A DNA stretch of 64,000 nt, from assembly GCA_946617625.1 (NCBI GenBank), contig CAMOKF010000001.1, positions 22,064 to 86,063 on the forward strand, in the 5' to 3' direction. The DNA comes from an uncultured Bacillota bacterium (lineage in GTDB: Bacteria > Bacillota_I > Bacilli_A > RF39 > UBA660). This document shows positions 16,007 through 42,759 of this stretch, one piece after another (the first letter of the stretch is position 1; every line of letters begins with the position of its first letter). Position numbers and translations under genes: made by a program. The notes beneath the pieces were generated by a model. That model was not told the DNA's origin. It made no database searches and saw only the letters and a program-made list of their open reading frames with translations.

Positions 16007-16529
16007 TTATTTTTTCCTCTTCTATGTTTGTTCCTATATATCTTGAATTAGATAATTCTAACTCTGATATTCTAGTTGTAAGTATTTTCTTTATTACATT
16101 AAGAACTTCATAACCAGCATCTATTTTACTCTTAGCTTGTTTATATGCTCTACTATAAACTGTAAGCACAACATCTTCTGACTGCGATGCCAATGTAGCA
16201 GCAGCTTCCTTATTAGCAACAGTTCCTTCTGTTTCTTGTTTAACTCTAGAGAAAACATCATTTTTAAGCTTTTTACTAACGTCTTCTTTGATGCCCAAAT
16301 TCTCTAATTGACTAACAGATGCATATAACATAGTAGCTAAATCTGCAATCATCTTATGTAGAGTTTCATTAGTCACAACTGTTATATCTTCCATAATTGC
16401 ACTTCTAATATCAAATACAATATTATCTAAATCTAGACAACATTTATCTACTGCCTCTTTAACTAATTTTTCTACATCTGATGATAAGTCAATAACTTCA
16501 TCATTAATTTTAATAATAGTTTCTTCCAT
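15999..16529 (-). CDS. hypothetical protein
   Basis: ORF in minus-strand array. Confidence 0.45.
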   Translation of the reverse strand: MEETIIKINDEVIDLSSDVEKLVKEAVDKCCLDLDNIVFDIRSAIMEDITVVTNETLHKMIADLATMLYASVSQLENLGIKEDVSKKLKNDVFSRVKQETEGTVANKEAAATLASQSEDVVLTVYSRAYKQAKSKIDAGYEVLNVIKKILTTRISELELSNSRYIGTNIEEEKINE

Positions 16530-16542
16530 AAAATTTTCCTCC

Positions 16543-17004
16543 CTAAAGATTTCTTCTTGCGTATTCAGCCATTAATAAAGCTTCAGCAATACCATCGTGG
16601 TCTTTTGTGCATCTCTTAGAACCCGCAGTTCTTCGTAAATCAACTTTTGGAAAAAGTCTTTTAGCAACTGCTATTGAAGTATTCTTATCACTAGTTACAC
16701 TAAATTCTTTCTTCCATTTTTGCGGTGTTACTAACTCAAATGGAATATCAAATGCTTTTAATAAACCTTGAATAAAACCAAAATTATTACCGAACGCAAA
16801 TGCACTTTTATGACTATCCCTCGGCATACTGTGTACGTGTTCTAAACAACAAACGCACGACTCACCTTGTAGCATTAGATTATGAATATGTCTTAAAGAT
16901 TCTAGATAATTTTCTTCTGAAAAAATTTGTCTAATCATTATATCTCTATTTTTAAGAACCACTAAAGCACCACTGTTACCTGGGTCAATACCTATAAATA
17001 TCAT
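16543..17004 (-). CDS. RuvC-like Holliday-junction resolvase
   Basis: N-terminus MIFIGIDPGNSGALVVL (RuvC IxGIDPG motif) taking the internal ATG at 17004; C-terminal acidic/His residues. Confidence 0.6.
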   Translation of the reverse strand: MIFIGIDPGNSGALVVLKNRDIMIRQIFSEENYLESLRHIHNLMLQGESCVCCLEHVHSMPRDSHKSAFAFGNNFGFIQGLLKAFDIPFELVTPQKWKKEFSVTSDKNTSIAVAKRLFPKVDLRRTAGSKRCTKDHDGIAEALLMAEYARRNL

Positions 17005-17006
17005 CG

Positions 17007-18104
17007 TTACTCTTCTTCCTCGTCGTCTTGTGATAAAGAAATTATGTGTACTATACTTCCACAATCAATCTTTATAACTGAATCATTGCCATAATAAATA
17101 TCTACTTCTGAAGCTGGTACTGATGATAACGCCTTTATAAATTCTGTTGCGTTTACTTTACAGCTAAATTCTAAATAATTCTCTGTATCTTCATTTGTCT
17201 GTAACTTCAACTCTTCATATGAACTATTATTTTTATTAGTTATTTTTACGAAATTACAATAAAAATCAAATACTAATTCATCATCGTCATATGGGTCTAT
17301 AAATAATCTTAATCTATCAATAGTAGATATATAATCATCGCAATCTATTTTACCACTATATTTAAATTCTGTATCTAATACCGATTTCAAATTTGTAATA
17401 GGATATTCATTAGAATTATGTAAACCTTTTGATGTTATTATAATATCACTGGATACAAATTGTAAACTATTATTTGATTTAATTAGTTTTACTTTATCAT
17501 CAGAACTTAAACAAATTAAATCTATAACTTTAGTAGGTATCAGCATAGGATTATCTTTTATAATAGATTTTTTATTAAATGTTGCTACAAAACCATTAGT
17601 TATTGTAGTATCTTCTAAGCCGCAATAATATGAAAATAAATAGTCTTCACTAGAATAATCGGAATTTTCACTTAACGATATTTTACTAAAATTTCTAATT
17701 GATTTAATATCAGATAATGGTATTTCACTTTCTTCACCTTGAATATCATTAGGTTCATCTATTGATACAATACCATTTTCATCTACAATTAAAGGAATTT
17801 TATATGTACCATTAGCCTTAACTACTAATGTATTATCCTCTACACTTAATTTAGTTTCGTCTGATGTTAGTTTTCCAACTAGTTTTGAAAATATATCTAC
17901 ATTAACAGAAACATCTAAATCTCCTTCAACATCATTAGTAATAACAGATGTTGTAGTATTAACATCAGATGTAATTAATCTAAATCTATTATTATCTACT
18001 TTTATGCCTAGCATAGATGTTAATACCACAACTGTACTAGAACCAGCACCTTTAATAGATTTATTCATCATTTCTTTTAGTTTACTTGTTTTTATTTTTA
18101 TCAT
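17007..18104 (-). CDS. possible sliding clamp (size and position only)
   Basis: 365 aa, located among clamp-loader/RecA/RuvC genes; no diagnostic motif. Confidence 0.35.
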   Translation of the reverse strand: MIKIKTSKLKEMMNKSIKGAGSSTVVVLTSMLGIKVDNNRFRLITSDVNTTTSVITNDVEGDLDVSVNVDIFSKLVGKLTSDETKLSVEDNTLVVKANGTYKIPLIVDENGIVSIDEPNDIQGEESEIPLSDIKSIRNFSKISLSENSDYSSEDYLFSYYCGLEDTTITNGFVATFNKKSIIKDNPMLIPTKVIDLICLSSDDKVKLIKSNNSLQFVSSDIIITSKGLHNSNEYPITNLKSVLDTEFKYSGKIDCDDYISTIDRLRLFIDPYDDDELVFDFYCNFVKITNKNNSSYEELKLQTNEDTENYLEFSCKVNATEFIKALSSVPASEVDIYYGNDSVIKIDCGSIVHIISLSQDDEEEE

Positions 18105-18116
18105 AATGATTACCTC

Positions 18117-18533
18117 CTATTCTCCAGTTGAACCAAATGCACCGGTACCGCGCTCATCTAGTTCATATTCTTCTACAAAATCTGCATATATTACGGGTCT
18201 AATTACAAGTTGTCCAACCTTATTTCCACTATACAATGTAAAATCCTCATCTGTAGTATTATACAATATTGCGTGAATTTCTCCAGTGTATCCAGCATCT
18301 ATTGGAGCATTTGCAGCCCATATACCTTTTTTACTTAAACCTGATTTACAATGAACTACTGCATCATATCCATCTGGTAATCTAAGTCCTATACCTGTTG
18401 GTATACATTCAACTGAATGAGCTTTAATCGTAACATCTTGCGTTGTAAAAATATCAGCTCCACTATCATTATGATAAGCTCTATCCGGCTTTCTAATTAG
18501 ATTATCATCAAATCTTATAATTTCAATTTTCAT
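18117..18533 (-). CDS. dut: dUTPase
   Basis: dUTPase motifs SGADIF, PIDAGYTGEI, RGTGAFGSTGE. Confidence 0.85.
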   Translation of the reverse strand: MKIEIIRFDDNLIRKPDRAYHNDSGADIFTTQDVTIKAHSVECIPTGIGLRLPDGYDAVVHCKSGLSKKGIWAANAPIDAGYTGEIHAILYNTTDEDFTLYSGNKVGQLVIRPVIYADFVEEYELDERGTGAFGSTGE

Positions 18534-18954
18534 AATTTATAATACCTCCTAAAGTAATTACTCTTGAAATTCCTGCGTTTCTAATCATACGTTCACATAA
18601 TGGACAAGGTTTTATATCTTCTATAACATTATCGTCTTCAGAACAAAATAAATATAAATCTCCACCTATCATATCACGTCTAGCAGCCGATAATAATGCA
18701 TTCTGTTCTGCGTGAACACTAGCACACACATCATAATCTCCAGAATTATGTTCTTTATCTAATCTAATACATTTACCTAAATCGCAGCAATTTAATTTAT
18801 TACGAACACTTCCATTATAACCAGTAGAAATTATCTCGTCATAATTTACTATTACTGCACCATACTGTCTTTTTAGACAAGTAGAACGTTTACTAACTGC
18901 CTGTGCGATATTCAAATAATAAGAATCTTTATCTAATCTCATAAATAACCTCAT
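18523..18954 (-). CDS. dCMP deaminase
   Basis: Zinc-binding HAEQNAL and PCPLCERMI (CDA-fold H-A-E / PCxxC). Confidence 0.85.
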   Translation of the reverse strand: MRLFMRLDKDSYYLNIAQAVSKRSTCLKRQYGAVIVNYDEIISTGYNGSVRNKLNCCDLGKCIRLDKEHNSGDYDVCASVHAEQNALLSAARRDMIGGDLYLFCSEDDNVIEDIKPCPLCERMIRNAGISRVITLGGIINYEN

Positions 18955-18956
18955 TA

Positions 18957-20117
18957 CTAAATAATTTTACTTAAACTATAAAATTTATCTTTACTATATT
19001 TAGCCAACTTTATATTATTTGGATTACATTGATTTATATAAATAATGTCATTATTATATAGTTGTTTACTACTAAATGCATTTTTTATTTGTTTTGATAT
19101 ATATCTTATAAAATTAACTGGAACACCTTGAGCAATACATTGAATAATTGGTGTTTTACATCTAGGTGTAAACTTAAAATCATTTGGATAACCCATCAAA
19201 GCAGCATACTCTCTTACGTAAAAATCTCTATTTTCTATTGGATGTATTATTTTAACGACAGACGCTAATGATGGAGCTCTATCATTTAATTTTGGTCTAT
19301 ATGGAGACTTGTCCCATATATTTTTATTATTATTAATCTTATCTTTAATTTTTATAATATCTTTTTTAACACTATCTGATAAATCTAAATCATCTAGATG
19401 TTCTACCTTAGATAATGCTACATATAAGCTCTCCTTTTCTTCTACCTTATCATAAAACTTAAACAACGATTCATCAGATTGTTCTGTAAAATTGCAATCA
19501 GTAGAAGAATAATCTATATTATTTAATACATTTTCTATATTGCAACGTTTACTATCTTGAACTATTTTAGGAATACCTGAAAAATTATCTCTGTTCCAAC
19601 CTATTATAAAAGTTCTACGTCTATGCATTGCAACATTATGATTACCGGCAATATCATTAATGATAGTAAATCTATAATTAGATAATAATTTTATCATATC
19701 TTTTAATATGGGCAAACCAGTAGTAGTCAATGTTGGAGCATTCTCTATTAAAAATGCTTTTGGATTAATTCTGTCTACCATTTTAAAAACATTATATAAA
19801 TATTTATTTACATCATTATCTACTTTAGCATTTCTATTTATAGAAGAAAGTCCTGAACAAGGTGGATTTGAAAATAGTAAATCGTAGTTTTCATCTTTTA
19901 ATTCATTTAAATAAGATTCATTATTTTCATATTCACTTGGAAGCTTTACTTCTATTTCTGGATAGTTTAACTTAAAATAGTGTGCATTTTGTTCTAACAT
20001 ATCATCGGTCATTTCAAGAATAGTATTTACATCCCATCCTTCTAGTAAATGACCTATAGTTTGACTTCCAGAAAATATATACATACCAATAGCTTTCATA
20101 ATTAGTCTCCTATGCAC
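18957..20117 (-). CDS. DNA (cytosine-5)-methyltransferase-like protein
   Basis: Motif I-like IFSGSQTIGH, motif IV FSNPPCSGLSSIN (Pro-Cys catalytic dipeptide), ENAP (motif VI ENV-like). Confidence 0.6.
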   Translation of the reverse strand: MHRRLIMKAIGMYIFSGSQTIGHLLEGWDVNTILEMTDDMLEQNAHYFKLNYPEIEVKLPSEYENNESYLNELKDENYDLLFSNPPCSGLSSINRNAKVDNDVNKYLYNVFKMVDRINPKAFLIENAPTLTTTGLPILKDMIKLLSNYRFTIINDIAGNHNVAMHRRRTFIIGWNRDNFSGIPKIVQDSKRCNIENVLNNIDYSSTDCNFTEQSDESLFKFYDKVEEKESLYVALSKVEHLDDLDLSDSVKKDIIKIKDKINNNKNIWDKSPYRPKLNDRAPSLASVVKIIHPIENRDFYVREYAALMGYPNDFKFTPRCKTPIIQCIAQGVPVNFIRYISKQIKNAFSSKQLYNNDIIYINQCNPNNIKLAKYSKDKFYSLSKII

Positions 20118-21370
20118 ATATTATATAGCTTTTTCATCATAATATCTCTATCAAAGACAGATTTATAATAATTATAAGCGTTATTTCTATACTCATCGTA
20201 TAAATCCATATTAGAATTAAGCTCATTCATAAGATTAAGTGTTTCTAAAGGATTATTTTCATCATACACAATTGTACCAATATCTTTTAGAGTATAATTA
20301 TCTAGTCTATCTCCACAGAAATTAGCACTATCATACAAATCTTTTCTAATAATTGGAATTGTACCACAAGCTACTATTTCTAATAAAGTTATTTCTAACT
20401 GTCCACCAAACTGTGGTCCAGTAAAAGTGAAAAACATACCAAATTTTGCTTTACTCAATCTCTCTAAAGCTTCTAATCTTACATATGGTCCATATATTTC
20501 CAAAGGATGATTACGATAATTTTCTATATTTTCTAAAACATCTTTTGGATTACCATTATCATTATAATTATTATCTTTTCTTAAGTCACCATATTTATTA
20601 GTTTTAGAATCATATTCCCATATAGCTTGCTTAGCATTTATAGAACGTTCAATTCCTTCAGCCACTGAAACATAATTATTATTCATAAGATATTCATAAT
20701 GAAATTCTCTAAAATACGTCCAACCCTTCCATAAAGCGGAACGTCCAATGAACCAACAAGTCTTATCTATCTTATCATTTGTCCAAAATCTATTTCTTAA
20801 ATCTTCGAAGTCTGTAGATATTAATTGTAACTGTTCTATTTTATAATTAGGTTTATCATTAATTAATGGTTTATTAATTAATGGCTTTACTTTTTTATTT
20901 ATAAACTTAGTACAAAAATCTGCTTGTTTATGATGAACAATAATTTTATCTAGAATACTAAAAAATCTCTTTATATAAGAACTATCTAAACAATAAAAAT
21001 TGCGATTAATGCTATGAATCTTATTATCTACTTGAAGATATACTAATTTTGTCCCATTATTATGCATATTTTCTAAAGTCAATAGAAAATTTTCAATAGT
21101 TTCTTCTGGATAATTTTTAGCTGGAACAGACATTATAATACATATATCTGGATTAAAACCAATTTTAGTATCTTCTAATAAACCTTCTTTAATAAAAGAA
21201 TGTTCCACAAAATCAGTTTCTTGCATATTTTTTCTACCCCAAGATTTGTCAGTTCCAGTAATAGTAATTACATTATTATTAATAGATTTTATATATTCTT
21301 CTAATTCAATAGTAATTCTAGTATTACCAGTACCTTCTGTACCTCTGGCTAATAGTAATAAAACGTTCAT
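20102..21370 (-). CDS. GT-B-fold glycosyltransferase (GT4-like)
   Basis: C-terminal FGMFFTFTGPQFGGQLEITLLEIVACGTIPII resembles the E-x7-E donor-binding motif region of GT4 enzymes. Confidence 0.5.
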   Translation of the reverse strand: MNVLLLLARGTEGTGNTRITIELEEYIKSINNNVITITGTDKSWGRKNMQETDFVEHSFIKEGLLEDTKIGFNPDICIIMSVPAKNYPEETIENFLLTLENMHNNGTKLVYLQVDNKIHSINRNFYCLDSSYIKRFFSILDKIIVHHKQADFCTKFINKKVKPLINKPLINDKPNYKIEQLQLISTDFEDLRNRFWTNDKIDKTCWFIGRSALWKGWTYFREFHYEYLMNNNYVSVAEGIERSINAKQAIWEYDSKTNKYGDLRKDNNYNDNGNPKDVLENIENYRNHPLEIYGPYVRLEALERLSKAKFGMFFTFTGPQFGGQLEITLLEIVACGTIPIIRKDLYDSANFCGDRLDNYTLKDIGTIVYDENNPLETLNLMNELNSNMDLYDEYRNNAYNYYKSVFDRDIMMKKLYNMCIGD

Positions 21371-21381
21371 AAATTAATTCC

Positions 21382-21612
21382 TTAGTCATTACTTTCTTTA
21401 AACTCTGGCATCTCTGTTCTAGGTCCAACATTAATGCTTATACTAAAATTGTTTACTCTGTAATTATTGCTACTTCCTTCTAGTGTTGATTGCATATTAA
21501 TATCAGTCTCAATTTCATCGTAATCTTCTAAATTTCTTAAGTTAGCATCCAATTCTTTTTTAAACTTTTTAATAATTACATCTTTATATCTCTTAATATC
21601 ATCTTTATTCAT
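21382..21612 (-). CDS. hypothetical protein
   Basis: ORF in minus-strand array. Confidence 0.4.
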   Translation of the reverse strand: MNKDDIKRYKDVIIKKFKKELDANLRNLEDYDEIETDINMQSTLEGSSNNYRVNNFSISINVGPRTEMPEFKESND

Positions 21613-21614
21613 CT

Positions 21615-22928
21615 TTAATTCTCCTTTATTATTTCTAATTCTATTAATTTATTTTTAAAATCTTTTTTAGATATAAATAAATCATCTACATAATTAACTA
21701 AAGCTGTTCTATATAAAAGTAATTTTTTAATGTTTAACACTTCATTACTTGATTCTAATGTACCATATGCAATATCTTTAAAAAATTGAATATCCTTATC
21801 ATATATATGTAGTGACATTGCATAATGATTATATGTTCCTACGTCTACATCTAACAATTCTGCTATATACTTTTGCAATGAAATGAAAAATCCTAAATCA
21901 TTAAGTACGCCATATCTCAAATCATTGCTACGCATAATTGTTGTACTATGTAATTTTTTATTTCTTATTTGATAGTTTAAACATATTGTACAAGGTTCAT
22001 CTTTAGTCTCTATTACTTTTTTATTAGGTATATTAATGTTTATAATAGCTCTTCTTGAATATGGGTCTTTTTTAAGCAATTCTACTATTTTTTCTATTTG
22101 ATTAAATCCATATTTTTGCTGTATTAAATACCCATAAGCCGAATTTGCAGTTAATCCATCATCTGAAACCTTTTCCCATAAACTAGCAAACTTACTAATA
22201 AATTTCAAATCATTTCTAGATGACCAATACCATAATAATTCTGCTGCTAAATATGTTAAATTAGTACCACCAGATTTCAAAGAAACATATTCATTATCTA
22301 AATCTGAAATAGAAAAACTATAATTACATAACTCTAAAGTGTGTCCTCTAGTATTTCTAGTTTCCATTGGATGTCCATTTTCTAAAACATCTCTGGCAAC
22401 TTGTCTATAAACAATGTTAGTAGTAGTTTTTCCATAATGACTATCTATCCAAGAATCTAACTTATCATAAGCATTATCTTCAGCTATATCGATAATATAA
22501 AAATTCTTATAATTATATTTATCTTTAAAATCCTTAGCTAATTTAGTAAAATGCTTATTTTGTGCTTCCATTATTGGAATAAAGCTATCTTCTCCACGTT
22601 CTTTGAGTCTTTTATTTATAATACTCATATCACTACTTATAAATACTATAAATAAATCATTATTATCTATAATTCTTTTGTTGATAGTTTCATATTCTTG
22701 AATACTTAACTTACAATCTCTATTATAAATAATTGGATATATCATTTCTCCAAAATGAAATCTTTCTAAAACTACATTATTTTGATAATCTAGTAAATTT
22801 ATATGATAGCCAAAATCATTTCTAGTTTTAGATGTAGAGTTAATTATAGACATATTATATTTAATTTTTAATTTATTCGATAATGTTGTTTTACCAGCTG
22901 CATCTAAACCTTCTAATATAATATTCAT
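21615..22928 (-). CDS. fusion: P-loop dNMP kinase domain + thymidylate-synthase/dNMP-hydroxymethylase-family domain
   Basis: N-term MNIILEGLDAAGKTTL (dNMP/thymidylate-kinase P-loop); C-term aligns with ThyA: ELLWYW, DPYSRRAIININ (RRIIVSAWN), DEPCTICLNYQI (catalytic PC), TIMRSNDLRYGVLNDLGF (QLYQRSCDVFLGLPFNI), SLHIY (THLY). Confidence 0.75.
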   Translation of the reverse strand: MNIILEGLDAAGKTTLSNKLKIKYNMSIINSTSKTRNDFGYHINLLDYQNNVVLERFHFGEMIYPIIYNRDCKLSIQEYETINKRIIDNNDLFIVFISSDMSIINKRLKERGEDSFIPIMEAQNKHFTKLAKDFKDKYNYKNFYIIDIAEDNAYDKLDSWIDSHYGKTTTNIVYRQVARDVLENGHPMETRNTRGHTLELCNYSFSISDLDNEYVSLKSGGTNLTYLAAELLWYWSSRNDLKFISKFASLWEKVSDDGLTANSAYGYLIQQKYGFNQIEKIVELLKKDPYSRRAIININIPNKKVIETKDEPCTICLNYQIRNKKLHSTTIMRSNDLRYGVLNDLGFFISLQKYIAELLDVDVGTYNHYAMSLHIYDKDIQFFKDIAYGTLESSNEVLNIKKLLLYRTALVNYVDDLFISKKDFKNKLIELEIIKEN

Positions 22929-22940
22929 ATGTAATTACTC

Positions 22941-23861
22941 CTATATCTTCATATACCAATTCTTCATAAAATCGCAATCACAGTTTAATGGTAAATCAAT
23001 TAAATCTGATGGAGCAGTTCTCATTAGATAAGATAATCTTTCTGCAACTTCTTTTTGATTTTCTTCAGGACACTCAACTATAACTTCATCGTGAACTTGA
23101 ATTATTAAATGCGCATCTAGTCTATTTAACTCTTCATCATTATTTATTTTAATCATAGCGAGCTTAGTCATATCGGCCGCGCTCCCTTGCACTCGCGAAT
23201 TAACACATTGTCTCTCTGCTTGTGATATAAATCCTGTATTATCTTTAATAACTATTCCATCATTTTTTCTTACATCTTGTATAAATTGATTTTTATTCTG
23301 CCAACCATAAATACTATTAAGTTCTTTAATATATGAATTCTTAATATTTATAGGTACCTCATTTGTATCTAAAGAAAAGTTTAATGGGTCAAATATTCTT
23401 GAATTTCCAGATAAATATTTAAAAGAGTATGGCTCTAATTGCATATCTGAAATGTGTCTTCGTCTTCCCCAAGCTGTAGTAACATACCCTTTCTCTTTAG
23501 CCATCTCTTGACTAGCTTCAATAAAATCTGCTAATTGTGGAAAAGCTCTTAACACAGCATCATATATCTCTTGAGCTTCTTTATTAGAAACATTTAATTG
23601 TTCAGCAATAGATGGAATCTGTCTTCCATAAAGAATACCTAATACAATACTCTTTGCCTGTGTTCTTCTTTCTTTACCTTCCACATTAGTTGAACCATCT
23701 TCATTGAACTCTAAGCATTCTTCATAACTTTTATGAAATGCTAAACTTGAAATAGTTGAATAAATATCTCTTCCATCGATAAATGCTTGCATCATCTTTT
23801 TATCTTGAGATAGATAAGAAGTAATCATTGGCTCCTGTTGTGACCTAAGAATAGTCAGCAC
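22941..23861 (-). CDS. family-A DNA polymerase, C-terminal part (motifs B and C); GTG start as drawn lacks motif A
   Basis: ITSYLSQDKKMMQAFIDGRDIY = PolI IMAHLSRDKGLLTAFAEGKDIH; motif B RTQAKSIVLGILYG; QGSAAD; motif C IQVHDEVIVE. Confidence 0.85.
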   Translation of the reverse strand: MLTILRSQQEPMITSYLSQDKKMMQAFIDGRDIYSTISSLAFHKSYEECLEFNEDGSTNVEGKERRTQAKSIVLGILYGRQIPSIAEQLNVSNKEAQEIYDAVLRAFPQLADFIEASQEMAKEKGYVTTAWGRRRHISDMQLEPYSFKYLSGNSRIFDPLNFSLDTNEVPINIKNSYIKELNSIYGWQNKNQFIQDVRKNDGIVIKDNTGFISQAERQCVNSRVQGSAADMTKLAMIKINNDEELNRLDAHLIIQVHDEVIVECPEENQKEVAERLSYLMRTAPSDLIDLPLNCDCDFMKNWYMKI

Positions 23862-23901
23862 CCACCATCACATATCTAGTTCTTGTTGCTAACTTTTTCA
23901 A
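23845..23901 (-). other. out-of-frame mini-ORF encoding polymerase motif A strand (TTG-KKLATRTRYVMVGADYS-TAG) with its own SD
   Basis: Minus strand AAAAGGGGGTGATAATAT-TTG...AGA TAT GTG ATG GTG GGT GCT GAC TAT TCT TAG; VMVGADYS = PolI VIVSADYS / T7 VLVGADAS; frame is -1 relative to 22941..23861. Confidence 0.4.
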
Positions 23902-23906
23902 TATTA

Positions 23907-24593
23907 TCACCCCCTTTTCCTATACCACTTTGGATATGTATATCTATTTCTTTTATAAGTATAATAACCTTGTTCTACACTTTGCTTAATTTTTCTTTGA
24001 TATACACACTCTGTTTTAGTATCAAATGGATTATCTATTTCTTTCCACCACTTCCAAGCATCTCTGTATGAATGAAATTCTAATTTTTCGCCTGTTTCCA
24101 TTATGCAATAACAACTTATTGACCTAGTATCACCAGTACCAAAATTATGGTTTCCTTTCATACTATTCGACAATCTTGCTCGGTGCTCATCAGTAAATAA
24201 TTCACCTAAAGCGGCTTTTCTCTTCATAGTTTCAGATATTTTCTTTCTTGTCTCTTCACTTCGCATACGTTTTTTATGTTTATCTCTAACATATGGTATG
24301 TCCATAACATTATTATCTCCGCCATCTACCATATTATAACCACTATTTATACTATCAAACTTATGTATGTAATAATTTTCTAGCTCATTTAATGTATCTT
24401 TATCTTCAGCAAAGCATATAACTTCCCAACTAAAATTATCTTCTCCATATTTTCTTATAGCACAATGAAATTGAACCTTACTACCATTTTTTGCGTCTCT
24501 AAGATGTCCTCTTTTTCTATCTAGTAATTTACGTCTTGTCTGTCCAATATACACTTTACCATTTATATTATTAGTAACCTTATATATTAACAA
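23907..24593 (-). CDS. GIY-YIG homing endonuclease (free-standing, inside polymerase gene)
   Basis: N-terminal IYKVTNNINGKVYIGQTRR...R..GH (GIY-YIG core), own SD GGAGGTG and TTG start. Confidence 0.85.
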   Translation of the reverse strand: MLIYKVTNNINGKVYIGQTRRKLLDRKRGHLRDAKNGSKVQFHCAIRKYGEDNFSWEVICFAEDKDTLNELENYYIHKFDSINSGYNMVDGGDNNVMDIPYVRDKHKKRMRSEETRKKISETMKRKAALGELFTDEHRARLSNSMKGNHNFGTGDTRSISCYCIMETGEKLEFHSYRDAWKWWKEIDNPFDTKTECVYQRKIKQSVEQGYYTYKRNRYTYPKWYRKRG

Positions 24594-24608
24594 ATAGTCA
24601 CCTCCAAT

Positions 24609-26126
24609 TTAATAATAAATTAATATATTATTATTGTCAGTAAGATTAACGATATTGGTGATAATAATCTCAAACTTGGCGTCGTTTTCGCTAACTAATA
24701 ATTTATCACCAACCACAAGATTACTAACGTATTTCCAGCCATCCGGCGTTTCAACCTCACTCCATTTTTTGACACAGAATGAATTATTAGACTCTTCTAC
24801 TATATCATCACTAGAATATGCTTTAAACATCGTTCTTATCTCTTTATTATGAGATGGAATATTCTGCATATTCGGGTCACTAGAACTAAATCTTCCTGTC
24901 TTAGCACCATATTGATTATAATTACAATGTATTCTACCATCATCATAAATAATTTCAGGCATCTTATCTATGTATGTAGACAACAATTTATCCGTTCCTC
25001 GTATATTTAAAATAGCCTCACATAAGTCTTTTTCTATATTATTTTGTGCAAAATGTTTAAGAATTTCTTCACCAGTACCTCTTGGAGATTTTTTAACTGG
25101 ACTTTCTAATTTTAAAATATCATAGAACAATATTGCAAGTTGTGTTGGACTTCCAATATTAATTGGGTCATTTAGTTTATGATTAGGATTATGTAGTTTA
25201 TATTGACTTATTTTTGAGTCATATTTATTTAGTATATTATTTATGACATCTGTCTGTTCTTCTCTAATTTTGTGATATTTATCTTTTAATTTATCACAAA
25301 CATCTAAATCAAGACAAACGCCTCTGTCTTCCATATCAGCACAAACATTTATAATAGGCATCTCAATATTTTTAAATACATTATATGGACCTTCCATATT
25401 ACTTTTTTCTAAAATATTCTTTTGATACTCATACAGCTCAAATGTTTTTATTGCATCTCCAGCTGCATATAAATATGCTGATGATATAGGAACTAAATCA
25501 AATGATACACCATTAAATAATTTATCAAATGTTAATGATTCTTTATCTAAACTATTACAATATTTTAAATGTAAATCTTTAAGTCCGTGTTTTTCGTTCT
25601 CGTTTATACAAAAACCAGCTAACATTGTATCCCAATAACATTCTAAATATAAATTCATAGTATGTCTTAATATTCTAATATCAAATTTAGCATTATGCAT
25701 AATCCATTTTCCATTGAATTTTTCTAATTCTAATTTAACATCATCAATATTTAACTGTGAATTTATTTTTTGACCAGTTATATACGATTTATGACCTATT
25801 GGAACATAAGCTGGTTTTTTGTTTGGAGTATAAAGACAAACACCAACTAAATCATCTCGCATAGTGTCTAATCCAGTAGTTTCTGTATCAATTGCACAAA
25901 TATTATTTTTAATAGCTTTCGAGATATATTCGCACAAATCATCTATGTTTTGAATTATTAGATATTTATCTTTATACTTACCAAGTTTATTTTCAGCACT
26001 AGAAACAATCTCCTGTATTTTAGCAGCAATATTATTAGTTCTTACGCTTTTAGGCTTAGCAGATTTAACTTTATTTAATAATTCCTTATCTGAAACTTTA
26101 GGTTTTTCAAATAAACCTCTCGCCAT
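24609..26126 (-). CDS. family-A DNA polymerase, N-terminal part (3'-5' exonuclease + first half of polymerase domain); last 55 codons Hint-like/intervening sequence
   Basis: Exo I ICAIDTETTGLD; pol region IIYDDGRIHCNYNQYGAKTGRFSSSDPNMQNIPSHNKEIRTMFKA = PolI [48 protein letters not shown]; homology stops at about residue 436. Confidence 0.9.
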   Translation of the reverse strand: MARGLFEKPKVSDKELLNKVKSAKPKSVRTNNIAAKIQEIVSSAENKLGKYKDKYLIIQNIDDLCEYISKAIKNNICAIDTETTGLDTMRDDLVGVCLYTPNKKPAYVPIGHKSYITGQKINSQLNIDDVKLELEKFNGKWIMHNAKFDIRILRHTMNLYLECYWDTMLAGFCINENEKHGLKDLHLKYCNSLDKESLTFDKLFNGVSFDLVPISSAYLYAAGDAIKTFELYEYQKNILEKSNMEGPYNVFKNIEMPIINVCADMEDRGVCLDLDVCDKLKDKYHKIREEQTDVINNILNKYDSKISQYKLHNPNHKLNDPINIGSPTQLAILFYDILKLESPVKKSPRGTGEEILKHFAQNNIEKDLCEAILNIRGTDKLLSTYIDKMPEIIYDDGRIHCNYNQYGAKTGRFSSSDPNMQNIPSHNKEIRTMFKAYSSDDIVEESNNSFCVKKWSEVETPDGWKYVSNLVVGDKLLVSENDAKFEIIITNIVNLTDNNNILIYY

Positions 26127-26127
26127 T

Positions 26128-26754
26128 TTAACCTCTTCTACTTCTTCTAGTTACTTGCTGTTCTGTATTGTCTTCACTACCATTTTCTGGAAATGCTCCA
26201 GTATCTATATAAGTATTAATTTCGTCTACAGTCTTATCTAGAATAAAACTTCCTAATAAATTAGGTCTTTCTACATCTTCAACATTTATTGGAGTAACAT
26301 CTGTAGCAGGTATTACTGTATATGTAGTATTTTGGTCACCTTTAGCTCCATTTCTAATTATTCTAAATGGTACTTTAGTAAAATCTGGATATTGAGTTGA
26401 ATAACCCTTCAATGTTTCTAAGAATTTTTTACCTCTTTGCCAAATCTTAACTTTCTTATCAGTGTGGTCGTAAAGACTCAAAATAATAACTGGCTTACGT
26501 TGGCTTCCTCTTTCACATAGTGGACATACATCTAATGGGTCATCATAATTTCTCTTACAATCTAAAAATCTAGTTTTAGATTGACCATTTTTGTACTTAA
26601 CTTCAACTTCGTGTACACTAAAAATATCTAAGTCATCTAAATCTTTAAATAAAAATTGTACTAGTGCACTATCATTGTTATTTTGAAGTTTAAACCAATC
26701 GTTACCAGTATTGTTTGAATAACTATCAACTTCATTAAAATTAATTCTTGCCAT
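26128..26754 (-). CDS. possible ssDNA-binding protein (T4 gp32-like zinc motif)
   Basis: H-x17-C-x10-C-x2-C (HEVEVKYKNGQSKTRFLDCKRNYDDPLDVCPLC) resembles gp32 His-Cys3 site; located next to polymerase and primase. Confidence 0.45.
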   Translation of the reverse strand: MARINFNEVDSYSNNTGNDWFKLQNNNDSALVQFLFKDLDDLDIFSVHEVEVKYKNGQSKTRFLDCKRNYDDPLDVCPLCERGSQRKPVIILSLYDHTDKKVKIWQRGKKFLETLKGYSTQYPDFTKVPFRIIRNGAKGDQNTTYTVIPATDVTPINVEDVERPNLLGSFILDKTVDEINTYIDTGAFPENGSEDNTEQQVTRRSRRG

Positions 26755-26805
26755 AGTTTTTCTCCCTTTCCTCTGTTTAATATTTTTTATAAAGTTTCTA
26801 TATGT

Positions 26806-26906
26806 GTGTATTTATCTCATTTTATAGCCTTTGTTTTACGTCCAATGCGTGAAAAACAAAATTGTAACATTTTTGTTTGATAAAAGGATAAATGAGATAA
26901 ATACAC
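26806..26906. repeat. 17-bp perfect inverted repeat (GTGTATTTATCTCATTT ... AAATGAGATAAATACAC) with 67-nt spacer in the SSB-gene leader
   Basis: Read directly; arms 26806..26822 and 26890..26906. Confidence 0.7.
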
Positions 26907-27161
26907 TTATTACAAAGAATAATTTAGTCAATATACAGTGGACGGTCTACTCTCTATTCCACAATTTAAGAGTTAATAATTCTACTTTTATAGGAGAGAT
27001 TCATAAAGAACTGACAACATAATAAAAATAAAATTAATAGACCTAGTGTTGCACAACTTTCTTTTAAGTTGGAAGTACGTCTTCCTAGACTCTTTTTCAT
27101 TTCTCTATGTATACTCGAAATGAAAATAATATATTATTATTCTTTATAAACTATAAATATA

Positions 27162-27190
27162 ATTATAATATACTTTTTACATATTGTAAA
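27162..27190 (-). promoter_or_regulatory. sigma-A-type promoter with TTTACA-N3-TGTAAA palindrome
   Basis: Minus strand TTTACAATATGTAAAAAGTATATTATAAT; 17-nt spacer; about 370-nt leader before the SSB-like gene. Confidence 0.55.
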
Positions 27191-27199
27191 CAGTAATAA

Positions 27200-28144
27200 T
27201 TAATATTTTTCATTAAGTACTAAAAAATCTTCTTGTAAATCATTTATGTCTTTATTTTTATCTACATATTCTATTTCTCTAACTATTTTATATTCGCTTA
27301 AATATTTCTTTAGTCTCTGTGTTCCCTTTCTTCCAGCCTCATCTGGGTCTAATGCTAAAATATATTTTCTTACTGGTAAATGTTGTAGCATTCTTATTTG
27401 ACTTGAACTTCCAGTACCCATTAATGCGACAGCTGGTAAACCTAACTTCCATAATGTAAGACAATTTAAAAAACTCTCTGTTATATAACATTTTTTATAT
27501 GAACCGAGTTGAAATTTCTCTGCACAATATATAGGTTTATCTTTTGTTTGTGGTATGTGAAAGAACTTACCTTCAACTGAACGTGTTGCAATCATTATTA
27601 CATCACCAGCATAATTCTTAACTGGAAAAGTTAAACATTTCTTTTCTTTGTCATAACCAATATCAAACTCTTCTATGATTTCGTCTGTTAGTCCTCGTTC
27701 ATACATATATGGATGAATGTATCTGTATTTATCTAATTCTTCTTCTGTTATGATTTTATCTTTTTCTTCTTTTTTAGAATTATTAAAAAATGACATTATA
27801 GGTTTTCGATTTTCTATTTCAGTAGAATTAAAATTTGTCACTAACCATTTTAATCCATACTGACCAAAATCTGTATGATGGCCGAATAATTCTGAAATCA
27901 TAGTTGTAATATCACCTGACCAATTACAACTAAAACAGTGTGCTTTACCATTATTTATATTTATTCCAAATGATGGTTTTCTCTCTTGACCATTCTTATG
28001 AAATGGGCAAGTACACTGAATATTTTCTCCATTAGGTTTTATATCTCTTAAATAATCTAAACCCTGATTATTAAGTTCTAACTTCAATGTATTAAGAACA
28101 TCTATCATCTCTGCTTGAATAACAGCACTCTCTAATTCAATCAT
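27200..28144 (-). CDS. dnaG: DnaG-type DNA primase
   Basis: Zinc-binding CTCPFHKNGQERKPSFGINI...CFSC; TOPRIM residues (YITESF..., LALDPDEAGRKG). Confidence 0.85.
   Translation of the reverse strand: MIELESAVIQAEMIDVLNTLKLELNNQGLDYLRDIKPNGENIQCTCPFHKNGQERKPSFGININNGKAHCFSCNWSGDITTMISELFGHHTDFGQYGLKWLVTNFNSTEIENRKPIMSFFNNSKKEEKDKIITEEELDKYRYIHPYMYERGLTDEIIEEFDIGYDKEKKCLTFPVKNYAGDVIMIATRSVEGKFFHIPQTKDKPIYCAEKFQLGSYKKCYITESFLNCLTLWKLGLPAVALMGTGSSSQIRMLQHLPVRKYILALDPDEAGRKGTQRLKKYLSEYKIVREIEYVDKNKDINDLQEDFLVLNEKY

Positions 28145-38430: not shown

Positions 38431-38431
<1 letters not shown>
38403..38431 (-). promoter_or_regulatory. sigma-A-type promoter with TTTACA-N3-TGTAAA palindrome
   Basis: Minus strand TTTACAAATTGTAAATTATATATTATAAT; -35 abuts the GroEL stop codon. 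Confidence 0.55.
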
Positions 38432-40062
<1,631 letters not shown>

Positions 40063-41751: not shown

Positions 41752-42759
41752 TTACTCCTTGTTTAGTTCAGACAATAACGCATTACCACAAGTTATTCTA
41801 TCTTCATCTTCTTCTTTTGACGGTACGAAAACAATAACATCCCAACCGTCTTTAACTAACGGTTGTTCAAATTTTTCATATACATCATAATCTGTTACTA
41901 TTTCATAATCATTTTCAACAGCTGTATGTGTTTCGTGAATAGGAGTGATTTTGACAATACATTTTTCTTTGTCAAAATATTTATTCATTAAATCTACATC
42001 TAAATTAGATTCTGATGTAACAGCAAAATTTAATGTGTATTTTCTACCTTTTGGAACAGGAAGTGAATCAATAATATTTCCTATAGATTCTAATGACATT
42101 GATTTATTATTGAACATCTTATTTCTTTGTTCTTCATCTAAAGTATTTATAGAAAATTGTAAACCAACTCCACCATTCCATAATTTGTTTCCTAGTTTAT
42201 CCTCGTCACATTTAATCCACTCTTCTATAAAGTGTACAAAATCAACATAATTTTTAGGACACATTGTTGATACTACAGGATGATATTCATCGAAATCTAT
42301 AATTTTGAAACCATCACAGAGTTCTCTAGAATTTAAACATCCTATGTATCTTGCAGTTGTTATGACATCTTTATTTAGTGTAGGTTCTCCCATTCTTGCA
42401 AAATGAACATTAAGTCTTTTGCCCTTTTTTATTTCCGATAGAGCGATTGCTGAAACTATTTCATCTACCATTTCAGATTCACTCGCATTACCCTTAAATT
42501 CTAATTTAGGACAATCACAGAAATTACAACTCATAGGACAACCTTTTTGAGATGATACTGTTACAACTAATTTTTCAGTTAAATCAACATCTGTATGCTC
42601 TACTTTATCTATTCGTTTTGTATATCCAAGAAAATCAGCTTTTATATTATTTTCTTTTCCATAATCTCCAACATATAAATATTCAAGATGTTTATCTACA
42701 TCACTAATTATCTTACCTGTTCTAGTTTCTGTTATTTTCTTCATCATATTCTCCTTCAA
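41752..42759 (-). CDS. radical SAM enzyme, RlmN/Cfr-like signature
   Basis: VSSQKGCPMSCNFCDC (RlmN VSSQVGCALECKFCST; CxxxCxxC) and C-terminal ITCGNAL (RlmN AACGQLA). Confidence 0.7.
   Translation of the reverse strand: MKENMMKKITETRTGKIISDVDKHLEYLYVGDYGKENNIKADFLGYTKRIDKVEHTDVDLTEKLVVTVSSQKGCPMSCNFCDCPKLEFKGNASESEMVDEIVSAIALSEIKKGKRLNVHFARMGEPTLNKDVITTARYIGCLNSRELCDGFKIIDFDEYHPVVSTMCPKNYVDFVHFIEEWIKCDEDKLGNKLWNGGVGLQFSINTLDEEQRNKMFNNKSMSLESIGNIIDSLPVPKGRKYTLNFAVTSESNLDVDLMNKYFDKEKCIVKITPIHETHTAVENDYEIVTDYDVYEKFEQPLVKDGWDVIVFVPSKEEDEDRITCGNALLSELNKE

What the first reader, a model, noticed from the sequence alone, without database searches (positions are those of the whole stretch)
18117..22928. 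Contiguous pyrimidine-modification cluster: dUTPase, dCMP deaminase, C5-MTase-like, GT-B glycosyltransferase, dNMP kinase::ThyA-like fusion - predicts hypermodified (hydroxymethylated +/- glycosylated) DNA
Five adjacent genes supply every step needed to divert dUMP or dCMP into a hydroxymethyl-pyrimidine nucleotide pool, as in SPO1 (hmdU) or T-even (hmdC) phages. dCMP deaminase and dUTPase supply dUMP and remove dUTP. A ThyA-family enzyme with the catalytic Pro-Cys and the C-terminal folate-site block lacks ThyA-specific assignability. A dedicated kinase domain is fused to it. A GT-B glycosyltransferase and a cytosine-5-MTase-like enzyme could further decorate bases in DNA. The window therefore predicts a non-canonical base and an anti-restriction strategy.
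Basis: partly seen in the sequence, partly recalled or inferred. Interest (0 to 1): 0.8.

Follow-up and report, generated by a model that had tools for sequence, protein, structure and literature searches.

The report
Phage glycosyl-hydroxymethylcytosine DNA modification cluster
An uncultivated low-GC phage carries a tightly packed gene set that most likely replaces cytosine in its DNA with sugar-decorated 5-hydroxymethylcytosine, as phage T4 does, but with a fused kinase-hydroxymethylase and an unexplained cytosine-methyltransferase-like partner.

Summary
Window 18117-22928 (minus strand) holds six back-to-back ORFs: dUTPase, dCMP deaminase, a C5-MTase-fold protein, a T4 alpha-glucosyltransferase (AGT, PF11440) homologue, a 76-aa orphan, and a kinase::ThyA-like fusion.

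The evidence points to cytosine. The ThyA-like domain carries the same residues as experimentally characterised T4 dCMP hydroxymethylase gp42 at all ten diagnostic positions. This argues against dUMP, CMP, 5-hydroxy-dCMP and simple methylation.

Homologues in other phages sit next to enzymes that decorate 5hmC: alpha-GT, beta-GT, TAGT and 5hmC-carbamoyltransferase. The closest cultured relatives, Enterococcus phages VPE25 and VFW, have DNA reported to be glycosylated at cytosine.

"Every step needed" is overstated. The window has no dCTPase, TET or true thymidylate synthase.

The C5-MTase-like gene is unexplained. It belongs to a divergent clade with an atypical motif I. Its ribosome-binding site lies inside the AGT gene's 3' end. 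In relatives it follows three unrelated GT families.

Verdict: a new variant of the known T-even-type hmC/glycosyl-hmC system. Interest is moderate.

The parts
21615..22433 (-). ThyA-fold dCMP 5-hydroxymethylase domain (aa 166-437 of the fusion). Key codons: Cys313 (21992-21990), Asp310 (22001-21999), Asp336 (21923-21921), Asp344 (21899-21897), Ser334, Arg292.
   Evidence: PF00303 at 5e-26. Best PDB sequence hits are MilA CMP hydroxymethylase (3e-26) and T4 dCMP hydroxymethylase (7e-13), ahead of most true thymidylate synthases. Foldseek top hits are MilA at 1e-17 and T4 dCH at TM 0.72. Identical to T4 gp42 at ten diagnostic positions. Residues verified.
22434..22928 (-). N-terminal P-loop nucleoside-monophosphate kinase domain (aa 1-165), fused to the hydroxymethylase. 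Inferred to be a 5hm-dCMP kinase.
   Evidence: PF02223 Thymidylate_kin at 1.6e-8 and phrog_761 at 1.5e-11. Closest solved structure is the SPbeta prophage protein YorR, 2.4e-7; T4 gp1 was not detected. P-loop residues G7, D9, G12 and K13 are invariant in 35 homologues. In Enterococcus Denvervirus phages the kinase is a separate gene directly upstream of the ThyA-like gene.
21382..21612 (-). 76-aa ORF of unknown function between the fusion and the AGT gene.
   Evidence: No Pfam, PHROG or NCBIfam match. No tblastn match in any of 55 related loci. It is absent in L005, where the AGT gene directly follows the fusion.
20102..21370 (-). DNA glycosyltransferase of the T4 alpha-glucosyltransferase (AGT, GT-B) family. 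Inferred to add a sugar to 5hmC in DNA.
   Evidence: PF11440 at 1.7e-24 (87 bits, cutoff 25) and phrog_2888 at 6e-54. Aligns end to end with T4 AGT 1xv5 at E 1.7e-31. About 30% identical to T-even a-gt. Gly15, Asp115, His146 (T4 H140), Arg210 (T4 R204) and Glu331 (T4 E311) are conserved. T4 His114 and His116 are Val114 and Asn116 here.
18957..20099 (-). C5-cytosine DNA methyltransferase-fold protein of a divergent phage clade. Catalytic residues are intact and motif I is atypical. Its role in the pathway is unresolved.
   Evidence: PF00145 at 1e-26. AlphaFold pLDDT 92.5; Foldseek matches prophage Cp-933R MTase, M.HaeIII, M.HhaI and DNMT1 at 1e-18 to 1e-15. Family invariants are Pro80-Cys81, Glu119-Asn120, Arg160/Arg162 and Gln324-Gly-Val-Pro. 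Motif I reads F-x-G-S-Q-T. The AGGAG ribosome-binding site lies inside the AGT gene's 3' end. The gene follows AGT, beta-GT-like or TAGT genes in relatives.
18523..18954 (-). dCMP deaminase (zinc-dependent). Inferred to divert dCMP to dUMP for dTTP supply in a 73% A+T genome.
   Evidence: PF00383 at 2.9e-17 and phrog_174 at 6e-37. HAE and PCxxC motifs are present in the sequence. Homologues 58-65% identical lie in hydroxymethylase/carbamoyltransferase loci.
18117..18533 (-). Trimeric dUTPase. Inferred to keep uracil out of DNA and return dUMP.
   Evidence: PF00692 at 4e-21, phrog_135 at 1e-33, TIGR00576 at 2e-29. Motifs I-V can be read in the sequence. A dUTPase lies just downstream of the ThyA-like gene in most related loci, including the Denvervirus phages.
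22941..26126 (-). Context: family A DNA polymerase gene in two pieces (24609-26126 and 22941-23861), separated by a GIY-YIG/NUMOD3 endonuclease ORF (23907-24593). This polymerase is the presumed consumer of 5hm-dCTP.
   Evidence: PF00476 profile positions 18-149 are on the N-terminal piece and 160-381 on the C-terminal piece; PF01612 exonuclease domain; PF01541 and PF07460 on the middle ORF. The gene order Pol, then Kin::TS, is conserved in L005-L007.

Best explanation
The cluster is a T-even-type cytosine-replacement pathway rebuilt from partly different parts.

Shown by sequence or structure comparison:
- The C-terminal domain of the 437-aa fusion is a folate-type ThyA-fold enzyme with the active-site signature of dCMP 5-hydroxymethylase.
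- Its N-terminal domain is a P-loop NMP kinase.
- The next enzyme gene downstream, after the 76-aa orphan ORF, encodes a full-length homologue of T4 DNA alpha-glucosyltransferase.
- The cluster sits inside the replisome operon, between the DNA polymerase/SSB genes and the sliding-clamp gene.

Inferred:
- dCMP is converted to 5hm-dCMP. Cys313 attacks C6, Asp344 reads the cytosine N3/N4, and Asp310/Glu311 let water quench the exocyclic methylene.
- The fused kinase phosphorylates 5hm-dCMP to the diphosphate, and a host NDP kinase makes 5hm-dCTP.
- The adjacent phage family A polymerase incorporates it.
- After replication, the AGT homologue transfers a hexose from an NDP-sugar onto the 5-hydroxymethyl group. 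The sugar may not be glucose, because two glucose-contacting histidines are replaced.
- dCMP deaminase shunts part of the dCMP into dUMP for dTTP synthesis, and dUTPase keeps the resulting uracil out of DNA.

The outcome would be glycosyl-5hmC DNA that resists restriction and probably Cas nucleases.

The C5-MTase-fold enzyme is translationally coupled to the GT. My best guess is that it methylates cytosines that escape replacement, since no dCTPase was found. This step is the weakest.
For: 1. Family and structure matches for all genes.
2. Diagnostic residues, in E. coli ThyA numbering, taken from PMC13326640, PMC8670742 and PMC5175136:
- C146 is Cys313.
- N177 is Asp344, the cytosine type.
- L143 is Asp310, the hydroxymethyl rather than methyl type.
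- D169 is kept as Asp336, so it is not the D169N 5-hydroxy-dCMP synthase type.
- S167 is Ser334 and R126 is Arg292, the deoxyribose rather than MilA ribose type.
These are invariant in 35 family members. All ten positions checked are identical to T4 gp42 in 57 of 58 homologues.
3. Guilt by association. ThyA-like homologues with this same signature lie next to AGT, T4-beta-GT-like, TAGT with UDP-galactopyranose mutase, or carbamoyltransferase genes. The carbamoyltransferase family was shown experimentally to act on 5hmC in DNA (PMC8670742).
4. The closest cultured relatives, Enterococcus phages VPE25 and VFW (about 45% identical, with the same kinase, ThyA-like, dUTPase, GT order), have DNA that resists bisulfite and MspI and is cut by PvuRts1I. 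That paper interprets this as cytosines modified by glycosylation (PMC4999554).
5. Operon-like packing and a ribosome-binding site inside the upstream gene.
Against: - There is no biochemical or DNA-composition data for this phage. Everything rests on homology.
- No dCTPase was found in the window, so complete replacement of C is not assured. The window covers only 64 kb of a genome of at least 136 kb.
- AGT positions His114 and His116, which contact glucose in T4, are not conserved, so the sugar is uncertain.
- The kinase is not a T4 gp1 homologue, and its substrate is inferred only from the fusion.
- A C5-MTase has no obvious substrate in fully hmC-substituted DNA.
- Two distant members of the MTase-like family (L057, L058) have no GT or ThyA-like gene within 10 kb.
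Confidence: 0.74

Rival explanations
1. Thymine-side pathway (SPO1 or ViI type). The ThyA-like domain hydroxymethylates dUMP supplied by dCMP deaminase and dUTPase, and 5hmU is then glycosylated or otherwise modified.
For: Many phages use 5hmdU as a handle (PMC5889632, listed).
Against: The pyrimidine-discriminating residue is Asp344, not Asn. It is invariant in the family and identical to T4 gp42 Asp179. No 5hmU DNA kinase or related later-step enzymes were found in the window. AGT, beta-GT and the 5hmC carbamoyltransferase are cytosine-side enzymes.
Confidence: 0.03
2. 5-hydroxycytosine pathway (RB69 or DLP3 type). The ThyA homologue is a flavin-dependent 5-hydroxy-dCMP synthase, and the GT makes an ether-linked glycoside.
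For: ThyA homologues with N177D and an acidic residue at position 143 can be 5hodCMP synthases, and GT-B enzymes decorate 5hoC (PMC13326640).
Against: The diagnostic D169N substitution is absent. Asp336 is invariant, as in T4 gp42. No arabinose or NDP-sugar biosynthesis genes are in the cluster. The GT is an AGT homologue, not an RB69-type arabinosyltransferase.
Confidence: 0.05
3. Methyl rather than hydroxymethyl. The ThyA-like domain is an XP12-type dCMP methylase, or the DNA C5-MTase is the main modifier. The DNA would carry 5mC, and the GT would act on something else, for example a non-DNA acceptor.
For: N177D alone converts thymidylate synthase into a dCMP methylase (cited in PMC8670742). 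An intact C5-MTase-fold gene is present.
Against: Position 143 is acidic (Asp310), as in hydroxymethylases. The C-terminal part of the ThyA profile (positions 219-266) is not matched, as in T4 dCH and MilA. The GT belongs to a family known only as a DNA 5hmC glucosyltransferase. No TET/5mYOX enzyme is present to turn 5mC into an acceptor.
Confidence: 0.06
4. The MTase-like protein is an integral, chemically new step of the hypermodification. It would use Cys81 attack at C6 of (glycosyl-)5hmC in DNA to exchange or elaborate the 5-substituent, rather than acting as a plain SAM methylase.
For: It is a distinct clade. Ordinary phage C5-MTases are only 22-30% identical, and the only close cultured homologue is Bacillus phage G gp301, which sits among two AGT homologues. 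Motif I is F-x-G-S-Q-T instead of F-x-G-x-G-G, and motif X has Gln324 at the position that sets the transferred group in CmoX and M.MpeI N374K (PMC12783734). It follows three unrelated GT families in relatives. C5-MTases exchanging the 5-CH2OH group in vitro is from my own knowledge and was not checked here.
Against: All other C5-MTase motifs and the target-recognition domain are conventional. Bona fide MTases vary at the motif X position (DNMT3 has Arg; from my own knowledge). L057 and L058 carry the gene without a nearby GT or ThyA-like gene. Conserved synteny in one phage lineage could explain part of the linkage.
Confidence: 0.1

Closest known systems
T-even (Tequatrovirus) hmC / glucosyl-hmC system: gp42 dCMP hydroxymethylase, gp1 dNMP kinase, gp56 dCTPase, cd dCMP deaminase, alpha- and beta-glucosyltransferases
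   Same: The logic is the same: pre-replicative 5hm-dCMP synthesis, a kinase, a dCMP deaminase, then post-replicative glycosylation. The hydroxymethylase shares all ten diagnostic residues with gp42. The GT is a full-length AGT homologue at E 1e-31 to 1e-33.
   Different: The kinase is fused to the hydroxymethylase and is not a gp1 homologue. No gp56-type dCTPase is in the window. The dUTPase is of the trimeric type. A C5-MTase-fold gene is coupled to the GT. The replisome uses a family A polymerase. The host lineage has low GC (27%).
Enterococcus Denvervirus phages (VPE25, VFW, 9183, Planchet) and Lactobacillus phage ATCCB
   Same: These are the closest cultured homologues of the kinase and ThyA-like domains, at 39-45% identity over both. 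They share the kinase, ThyA-like, dUTPase, GT order. VPE25 and VFW DNA is reported to be modified at cytosine by glycosylation (PMC4999554).
   Different: There the kinase and ThyA-like proteins are separate genes. The GTs are beta-GT-like or other families rather than AGT. They have no C5-MTase-like gene and no dCMP deaminase in the cluster.
Metavirome ThyA-homologue / 5hmC-carbamoyltransferase clusters (MetaGPA, PMC8670742)
   Same: ThyA homologues with the same signature (44-45% identical) and dCMP deaminases 58-65% identical to the window's lie next to carbamoyltransferase genes (L017, L020, L029, L031).
   Different: The decoration there is a carbamoyl group rather than a sugar. No MTase-like gene is present in those loci.
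Bacillus phage G cluster gp301-gp317
   Same: It has the only close cultured homologue of the MTase-like protein (gp301, 49%), two AGT homologues, a dCMP deaminase and a Thymidylate_kin-like kinase.
   Different: The kinase is fused to a UDG-superfamily domain, not to a ThyA-fold domain. No ThyA-like gene lies in the 25 kb examined. A sugar nucleotidyltransferase and a HAD phosphatase are present. No data on the phage G DNA modification state was found.
Phage C5-MT / 5mYOX (TET) / GT post-replicative pathway (bioRxiv 10.1101/2023.12.21.572611)
   Same: A C5-MTase-fold gene sits adjacent to a DNA glycosyltransferase.
   Different: No TET/JBP-type dioxygenase is in the window. A ThyA-type hydroxymethylase is present instead. 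That paper found ThyS and 5mYOX together on only six contigs.

Membership tests
dCMP 5-hydroxymethylase (T4 gp42 type, ThyA fold) | ThyA fold with a catalytic Cys (E. coli C146) | tested here: met
   PF00303 at 5e-26. Foldseek: MilA 1e-17, T4 dCH TM 0.72. Cys313 is invariant.
dCMP 5-hydroxymethylase (T4 gp42 type, ThyA fold) | Asp at the N177 position (cytosine rather than uracil) | tested here: met
   Asp344 aligns with T4 gp42 Asp179 and MilA Asp186. In the thymidylate synthase 6auj the aligned residue is Asn. Invariant in the family.
dCMP 5-hydroxymethylase (T4 gp42 type, ThyA fold) | Acidic residue at the L143 position (water access, giving hydroxymethyl rather than methyl) | tested here: met
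   Asp310 aligns with Leu in thymidylate synthase and with Asp in MilA and gp42. The criterion comes from PMC13326640.
dCMP 5-hydroxymethylase (T4 gp42 type, ThyA fold) | Ser167 and Arg126 (deoxyribose preference, as opposed to MilA Ala176 and Lys133) | tested here: met
   Ser334 and Arg292 are invariant. The criterion comes from PMC5175136.
dCMP 5-hydroxymethylase (T4 gp42 type, ThyA fold) | Catalytic conversion of dCMP plus CH2-THF to 5hm-dCMP | not testable with these tools
   Needs an enzyme assay or in vivo expression followed by LC-MS.
5-hydroxy-dCMP synthase (RB69 gp48 / DLP3 gp80 type) | D169N substitution | tested here: not met
   Asp336 is retained and invariant. The criterion comes from PMC13326640.
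Thymidylate synthase ThyA / dUMP hydroxymethylase (SPO1 gp29 type) | Asn at position 177 (uracil recognition) | tested here: not met
   Asp344. All NCBIfam thymidylate synthase equivalogs score far below their cutoffs.
T4 DNA alpha-glucosyltransferase family (PF11440, GT-B) | Full-length homology above the curated threshold | tested here: met
   87 bits against a cutoff of 25. Residues 1-416 align to residues 2-396 of 1xv5 at E 1.7e-31.
T4 DNA alpha-glucosyltransferase family (PF11440, GT-B) | UDP-binding residues Gly15, Arg204 and Glu311, plus Asp115 | tested here: met
   Gly15, Arg210, Glu331 and Asp115 are conserved in the alignment. The residue list comes from PMC6024577.
T4 DNA alpha-glucosyltransferase family (PF11440, GT-B) | Glucose-contacting His114, His116 and His140 | tested here: inconclusive
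   T4 His140 is conserved (His146 here), but His114 is Val and His116 is Asn. The sugar donor may differ.
DNA C5-cytosine methyltransferase (PF00145) | Fold plus catalytic motifs IV (Pro-Cys), VI (Glu-Asn-Val type) and VIII (Arg-x-Arg), and a target-recognition domain | tested here: met
   PF00145 at 1e-26. Pro80-Cys81, Glu119-Asn120 and Arg160/Arg162 are invariant. Foldseek matches to M.HaeIII, M.HhaI and DNMT1.
DNA C5-cytosine methyltransferase (PF00145) | Canonical SAM-binding motif I (F-x-G-x-G-G) and motif X (G-N-S/A-V) | tested here: inconclusive
   Motif I reads F-S/G-G-S-Q-T. Motif X reads A-Q-G-V-P, with Gln324 invariant. The Pfam match starts only at profile position 29. Cofactor use cannot be decided from sequence.
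CmoX DNA C5-carboxymethyltransferase | SPPC motif, Arg350 at the motif X position, and CmoA (Cx-SAM synthase) nearby | tested here: not met
   The family has NPPC and Gln324. No CmoA-like family was detected in the window. The criteria come from PMC12783734.
C5-MT / 5mYOX (TET) / GT post-replicative hmC pathway | A TET/JBP-type dioxygenase encoded next to the MT and GT | tested here: not met
   No such family was found among the window's ORFs of 70 aa or more or in L003 and L059.
Complete T-even-type C-to-hmC replacement system | A dCTPase that removes dCTP (T4 gp56 or a MazG/PRA-PH analogue) | tested here: not met
   There are no Pfam/PHROG hits. phmmer with T4 gp56 against all 430 stop-to-stop frames gave a best E of 0.29. 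The rest of the genome of at least 136 kb was not available.
Trimeric dUTPase | Five conserved motifs and a family match | tested here: met
   PF00692 at 4e-21. TIGR00576 scores 102.2 bits against a cutoff of 102.55. Motifs GAD, KSG, IDAGYTGE, GQL and RGTGAFGSTG can be read.

The most novel reading that the evidence does not exclude
The divergent C5-MTase-fold enzyme may be a dedicated partner of DNA glycosyltransferases in hmC phages, not a housekeeping methylase. Two possibilities are open. It may install 5mC on the cytosines that escape hmC replacement, giving a two-layer, fully C5-blocked genome without a dCTPase. More radically, it may use covalent Cys-C6 catalysis on (glycosyl-)5hmC in DNA to exchange the 5-substituent, which would be a new class of post-replicative cytosine hypermodification. 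The stated probability refers to the radical, new-chemistry version.
Probability: 0.1. Interest if true: 0.85.

Novelty: new variant of a known kind. Interest (0 to 1): 0.45.

Why it matters
Glycosyl-hmC DNA is the classic phage anti-restriction and anti-CRISPR device, but it is characterised almost only in T-even coliphages. This window shows the same chemistry assembled in an uncultivated low-GC phage lineage that is abundant in metagenomes. There are at least 282 fusion-protein clusters, some on contigs of 330-530 kb.

Three features are new:
- A kinase-hydroxymethylase fusion, which suggests channelling of 5hm-dCMP.
- An alpha-GT homologue outside the T-evens and phage G.
- A glycosyltransferase slot that swaps between AGT, beta-GT and TAGT while a peculiar C5-MTase-fold gene stays attached.

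This matters in practice. Such DNA resists many restriction enzymes and biases sequencing and cloning of these phages. It also predicts sensitivity to type IV systems and to DNA-glycosylase defences. The MTase-like partner is a concrete, testable unknown in a pathway otherwise thought to be understood.

Tried and rejected
- Nucleotide search of the cluster against 50,697 phage records found no match.
- Exact-protein contig look-ups for the window's own fusion protein found nothing on record. The rest of the 136-kb genome therefore could not be inspected for a dCTPase, ThyX or TET.
- A single-sequence scan of viral contigs found nothing. It succeeded only with the family alignment.
- The genome-contig scan gave only two MAG contigs, one Candidatus Limenecus and one Bacilli, so there is no firm host call.
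- The promoter scan was no better than shuffled sequence, and no terminator-like sites were found.
- Cluster-member look-up returned no source names.
- Searches for a dCTPase (MazG, PRA-PH, HD or gp56 type) and for TET/5mYOX in the window were negative.
- The Rfam gathering scan found no group I intron in the split polymerase, only one tRNA.
- Rejected on diagnostic residues: a CMP-specific (MilA-type) enzyme, a 5hodCMP synthase, a dUMP hydroxymethylase and CmoX.
- Literature searches for a described ThyA-type hydroxymethylase, C5-MTase and GT combination, or for the kinase fusion, found nothing specific.

Full report
**1. What is there**

The window is a 27% G+C phage segment with essentially all genes on the minus strand. 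Between the sliding-clamp gene (17007-18104, phrog_947) and a family A DNA polymerase gene (22941-26126) lie six ORFs. The gaps between them run from -11 to +12 nt. No terminator-like site occurs in 16500-27500.

The six ORFs, with their best matches:
- dUTPase, 18117-18533: PF00692, 4e-21.
- dCMP deaminase, 18523-18954: PF00383, 3e-17.
- C5-MTase-fold protein, 18957-20099: PF00145, 1e-26.
- T4 DNA alpha-glucosyltransferase (AGT) homologue, 20102-21370: PF11440 at 87 bits against a cutoff of 25, and phrog_2888 at 6e-54.
- An orphan 76-aa ORF, 21382-21612: no match in any library.
- A 437-aa fusion, 21615-22928: a Thymidylate_kin-like P-loop kinase (aa 1-165) joined to a ThyA-fold domain (aa 166-437, PF00303, 5e-26).

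There are two corrections: the extra small ORF, and the MTase start. The start is most likely the ATG at 20099, with an AGGAG 7 nt upstream that lies inside the last codons of the AGT gene.

**2. Which base is modified**

Published work gives residue-level diagnostics for ThyA homologues.
- N177 (E. coli numbering) selects uracil, and Asp there selects cytosine (PMC8670742; PMC13326640).
- L143 is hydrophobic in methyl-forming enzymes and acidic in hydroxymethylases.
- D169N marks the flavin-dependent 5-hydroxy-dCMP synthases of RB69 and DLP3.
- Ser167 and Arg126 give deoxyribose preference, against Ala176 and Lys133 in the CMP-preferring MilA (PMC5175136).

HMMER alignments to MilA, to a true thymidylate synthase and to T4 gp42 place the window's residues as follows:
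- Cys313 at C146.
- Asp310 at L143.
- Thr314 at H147.
- Ser334 at S167.
- Asp336 at D169.
- Asp344 at N177.
- Arg292 at R126.

All are invariant in a 35-member family alignment. In a 59-sequence alignment that includes T4 gp42, 57 of 58 homologues have exactly the gp42 residues at all ten positions checked.

The best solved-structure relatives are the cytosine hydroxymethylases. By sequence, MilA scores 3e-26 and T4 dCH 7e-13. By fold, on an AlphaFold model with pLDDT 91.5 and pTM 0.90, MilA scores 1e-17 and T4 dCH reaches TM 0.72.

So the hmU option is contradicted. The 5hoC, CMP and plain-methyl options fail their defining residues.

**3. Context in relatives**

The fusion belongs to a large uncultivated family. 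At least 282 clusters score E <= 1e-10, the listed ones at 52-70% identity, on contigs up to 532 kb. I fetched 51 viral loci plus several metagenomic ones.

In cultured phages the two domains are adjacent separate genes. This holds in the Enterococcus Denvervirus phages (VPE25, VFW, 9183, Planchet) and in Lactobacillus phage ATCCB.

VPE25 and VFW DNA resists bisulfite conversion and MspI and is cut by PvuRts1I. That paper interprets this as cytosines modified by glycosylation (PMC4999554).

The gene slot next to the hydroxymethylase is filled by different enzymes in different relatives:
- AGT: the window, L005, L038.
- T4 beta-GT-like enzymes: L006, L007, L009, L010, L014, L024, and the VPE25 group.
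- TAGT, with or without UDP-galactopyranose mutase or a sugar nucleotidyltransferase: L003, L008, L011, L021, L030, L037, L059.
- Carbamoyltransferases: L017, L020, L029, L031, L039.

The carbamoyltransferase family was shown experimentally to carbamoylate 5hmC in DNA (PMC8670742). Every decorator found is a 5hmC-directed enzyme family, which independently supports 5hmC as the product.

A dUTPase directly follows the ThyA-like gene in most loci. dCMP deaminases 58-65% identical to the window's occur in the carbamoyltransferase loci.

**4. The glycosyltransferase**

The AGT homologue aligns end to end with T4 AGT at E 1.7e-31. phmmer gives 1e-33.

It keeps Gly15, Asp115, His146 (T4 H140), Arg210 (T4 R204) and Glu331 (T4 E311). 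It has Val and Asn at the glucose-contacting positions His114 and His116. The residue list comes from PMC6024577.

Only 38 AGT-family clusters were found in the large collection, against at least 282 for the fusion. Published surveys find alpha-GT outside T-even phages only in Bacillus phage G among RefSeq genomes (PMC13216743).

The fold and the acceptor are thus well supported. The sugar identity is not.

**5. What is missing**

No dCTPase of the MazG, PRA-PH, HD or gp56 type was detectable in the 64-kb window. No TET/5mYOX, no true ThyA or ThyX and no NDP kinase was detectable either.

"Every step needed" is therefore too strong. The genome is at least 136 kb, and I could not retrieve the remainder.

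**6. The MTase-like gene**

It has a complete C5-MTase fold (pLDDT 92.5). Foldseek matches M.HaeIII, M.HhaI and DNMT1 at 1e-18 to 1e-15. Pro-Cys, Glu-Asn, Arg-x-Arg and motifs IX and X are invariant. Motif I reads F-x-G-S-Q-T, and motif X has an invariant Gln where canonical enzymes have Asn.

It is not a CmoX carboxymethyltransferase. It has NPPC rather than SPPC, has no Arg at the motif X position, and the window has no CmoA (PMC12783734).

Ordinary phage C5-MTases are only 22-30% identical. The only close cultured homologue is phage G gp301 at 49%. That gene sits in a cluster with two AGT homologues, a sugar nucleotidyltransferase, a dCMP deaminase and a kinase::UDG-domain fusion.

In relatives the gene sits directly downstream of AGT, beta-GT-like or TAGT genes. 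In some cases the stop and start overlap, and the pair stays together even where the hydroxymethylase is 7 kb away. It is absent from the carbamoyltransferase and Denvervirus loci.

Two distant members, L057 and L058, lack any GT within 10 kb.

A C5-MTase has no substrate in fully hmC-substituted DNA, so its role is unexplained. The conservative guess is methylation of residual unsubstituted cytosines, which is plausible because no dCTPase was found. Alternatively, the linkage may reflect a conserved backbone gene sitting next to a GT swap hot-spot. The radical reading is new chemistry on (glycosyl-)hmC.

**7. Verdict**

The cluster is real and is best explained as a T-even-type pathway: pre-replicative 5hm-dCMP synthesis followed by post-replicative glycosylation. 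Confidence is about 0.74.

It is a new variant of a known kind. The kinase::hydroxymethylase fusion, an AGT homologue outside the T-evens, and a GT-coupled divergent C5-MTase-fold enzyme were not described in the literature I could search.

Interest is moderate, at 0.45. Specialists already expect ThyA-homologue and GT clusters in metaviromes (bioRxiv 10.1101/2023.12.21.572611). The MTase-like partner is a real, testable unknown.

Noticed in passing
window 22941-26126 (-): The family A DNA polymerase gene is in two ORFs, split between Pfam DNA_pol_A profile positions 149 and 160, near motif A. A GIY-YIG/NUMOD3 homing-endonuclease ORF (23907-24593) lies between them. The N-terminal piece carries about 67 extra C-terminal residues with no polymerase match (aa 439-505). 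Rfam found no group I intron at gathering score, so whether this is an intron, a split-intein-like arrangement or a true two-subunit polymerase is open.
   Followed up: partly
L056 (Bacillus phage G, JN638751 207471-232547), gp301-gp317: Phage G has a cluster with the MTase-like homologue gp301, two AGT homologues (gp306, gp313), a glucose-1-phosphate thymidylyltransferase, a HAD phosphatase, a dCMP deaminase, and gp315. gp315 is a Thymidylate_kin-like kinase fused to a UDG-superfamily domain (PF03167, 1.5e-12). No ThyA-like gene lies in these 25 kb. This suggests an uncharacterised DNA modification in phage G.
   Followed up: partly
L003, L005-L011, L014, L017, L020, L024, L029-L031, L037-L039, L059: The gene slot beside the hydroxymethylase varies widely among relatives. 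It holds AGT, T4-beta-GT-like, TAGT with UDP-galactopyranose mutase, CofD-like plus nucleotidyltransferase (L009), or carbamoyltransferase. The upstream chemistry is constant while the decoration diversifies.
   Followed up: partly
window 18117-18533 and most of L001-L040: A trimeric dUTPase gene lies immediately downstream of the dCMP-hydroxymethylase-type gene in most loci, across unrelated phage groups, while no dCTPase was seen. Whether these dUTPases also hydrolyse dCTP, the gp56 role, was not tested.
   Followed up: no
window 38431-40050 (-) and small ORFs nearby: The phage encodes a GroEL-type chaperonin (PF00118, 2e-77). Two small ORFs match Cpn10/GroES (3e-19), but their exact coordinates were not resolved because they were scanned as a pool.
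   Followed up: no
window 41752-42759 (-): A 335-aa protein has a weak radical-SAM match (PF04055, 4e-6, below cutoff) and a strong match to PHROG 24834, of unknown function (3e-79).
   Followed up: no
window 1093-1163 (-): A single tRNA gene (Rfam RF00005, 69.5 bits).
   Followed up: no
window 21382-21612 (-): A 76-aa ORF is wedged between the fusion and the AGT gene, with no homologue in any library or related locus. It is absent in L005, where the AGT gene directly follows the fusion.
   Followed up: partly
L003 (ENA ERZ28573570 scaffold_1, 532,570 bp) and other contigs of 330-440 kb listed: Close homologues of the fusion (57-64% identity) occur on very large contigs, suggesting that huge phages also carry this hmC module.
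   Followed up: no
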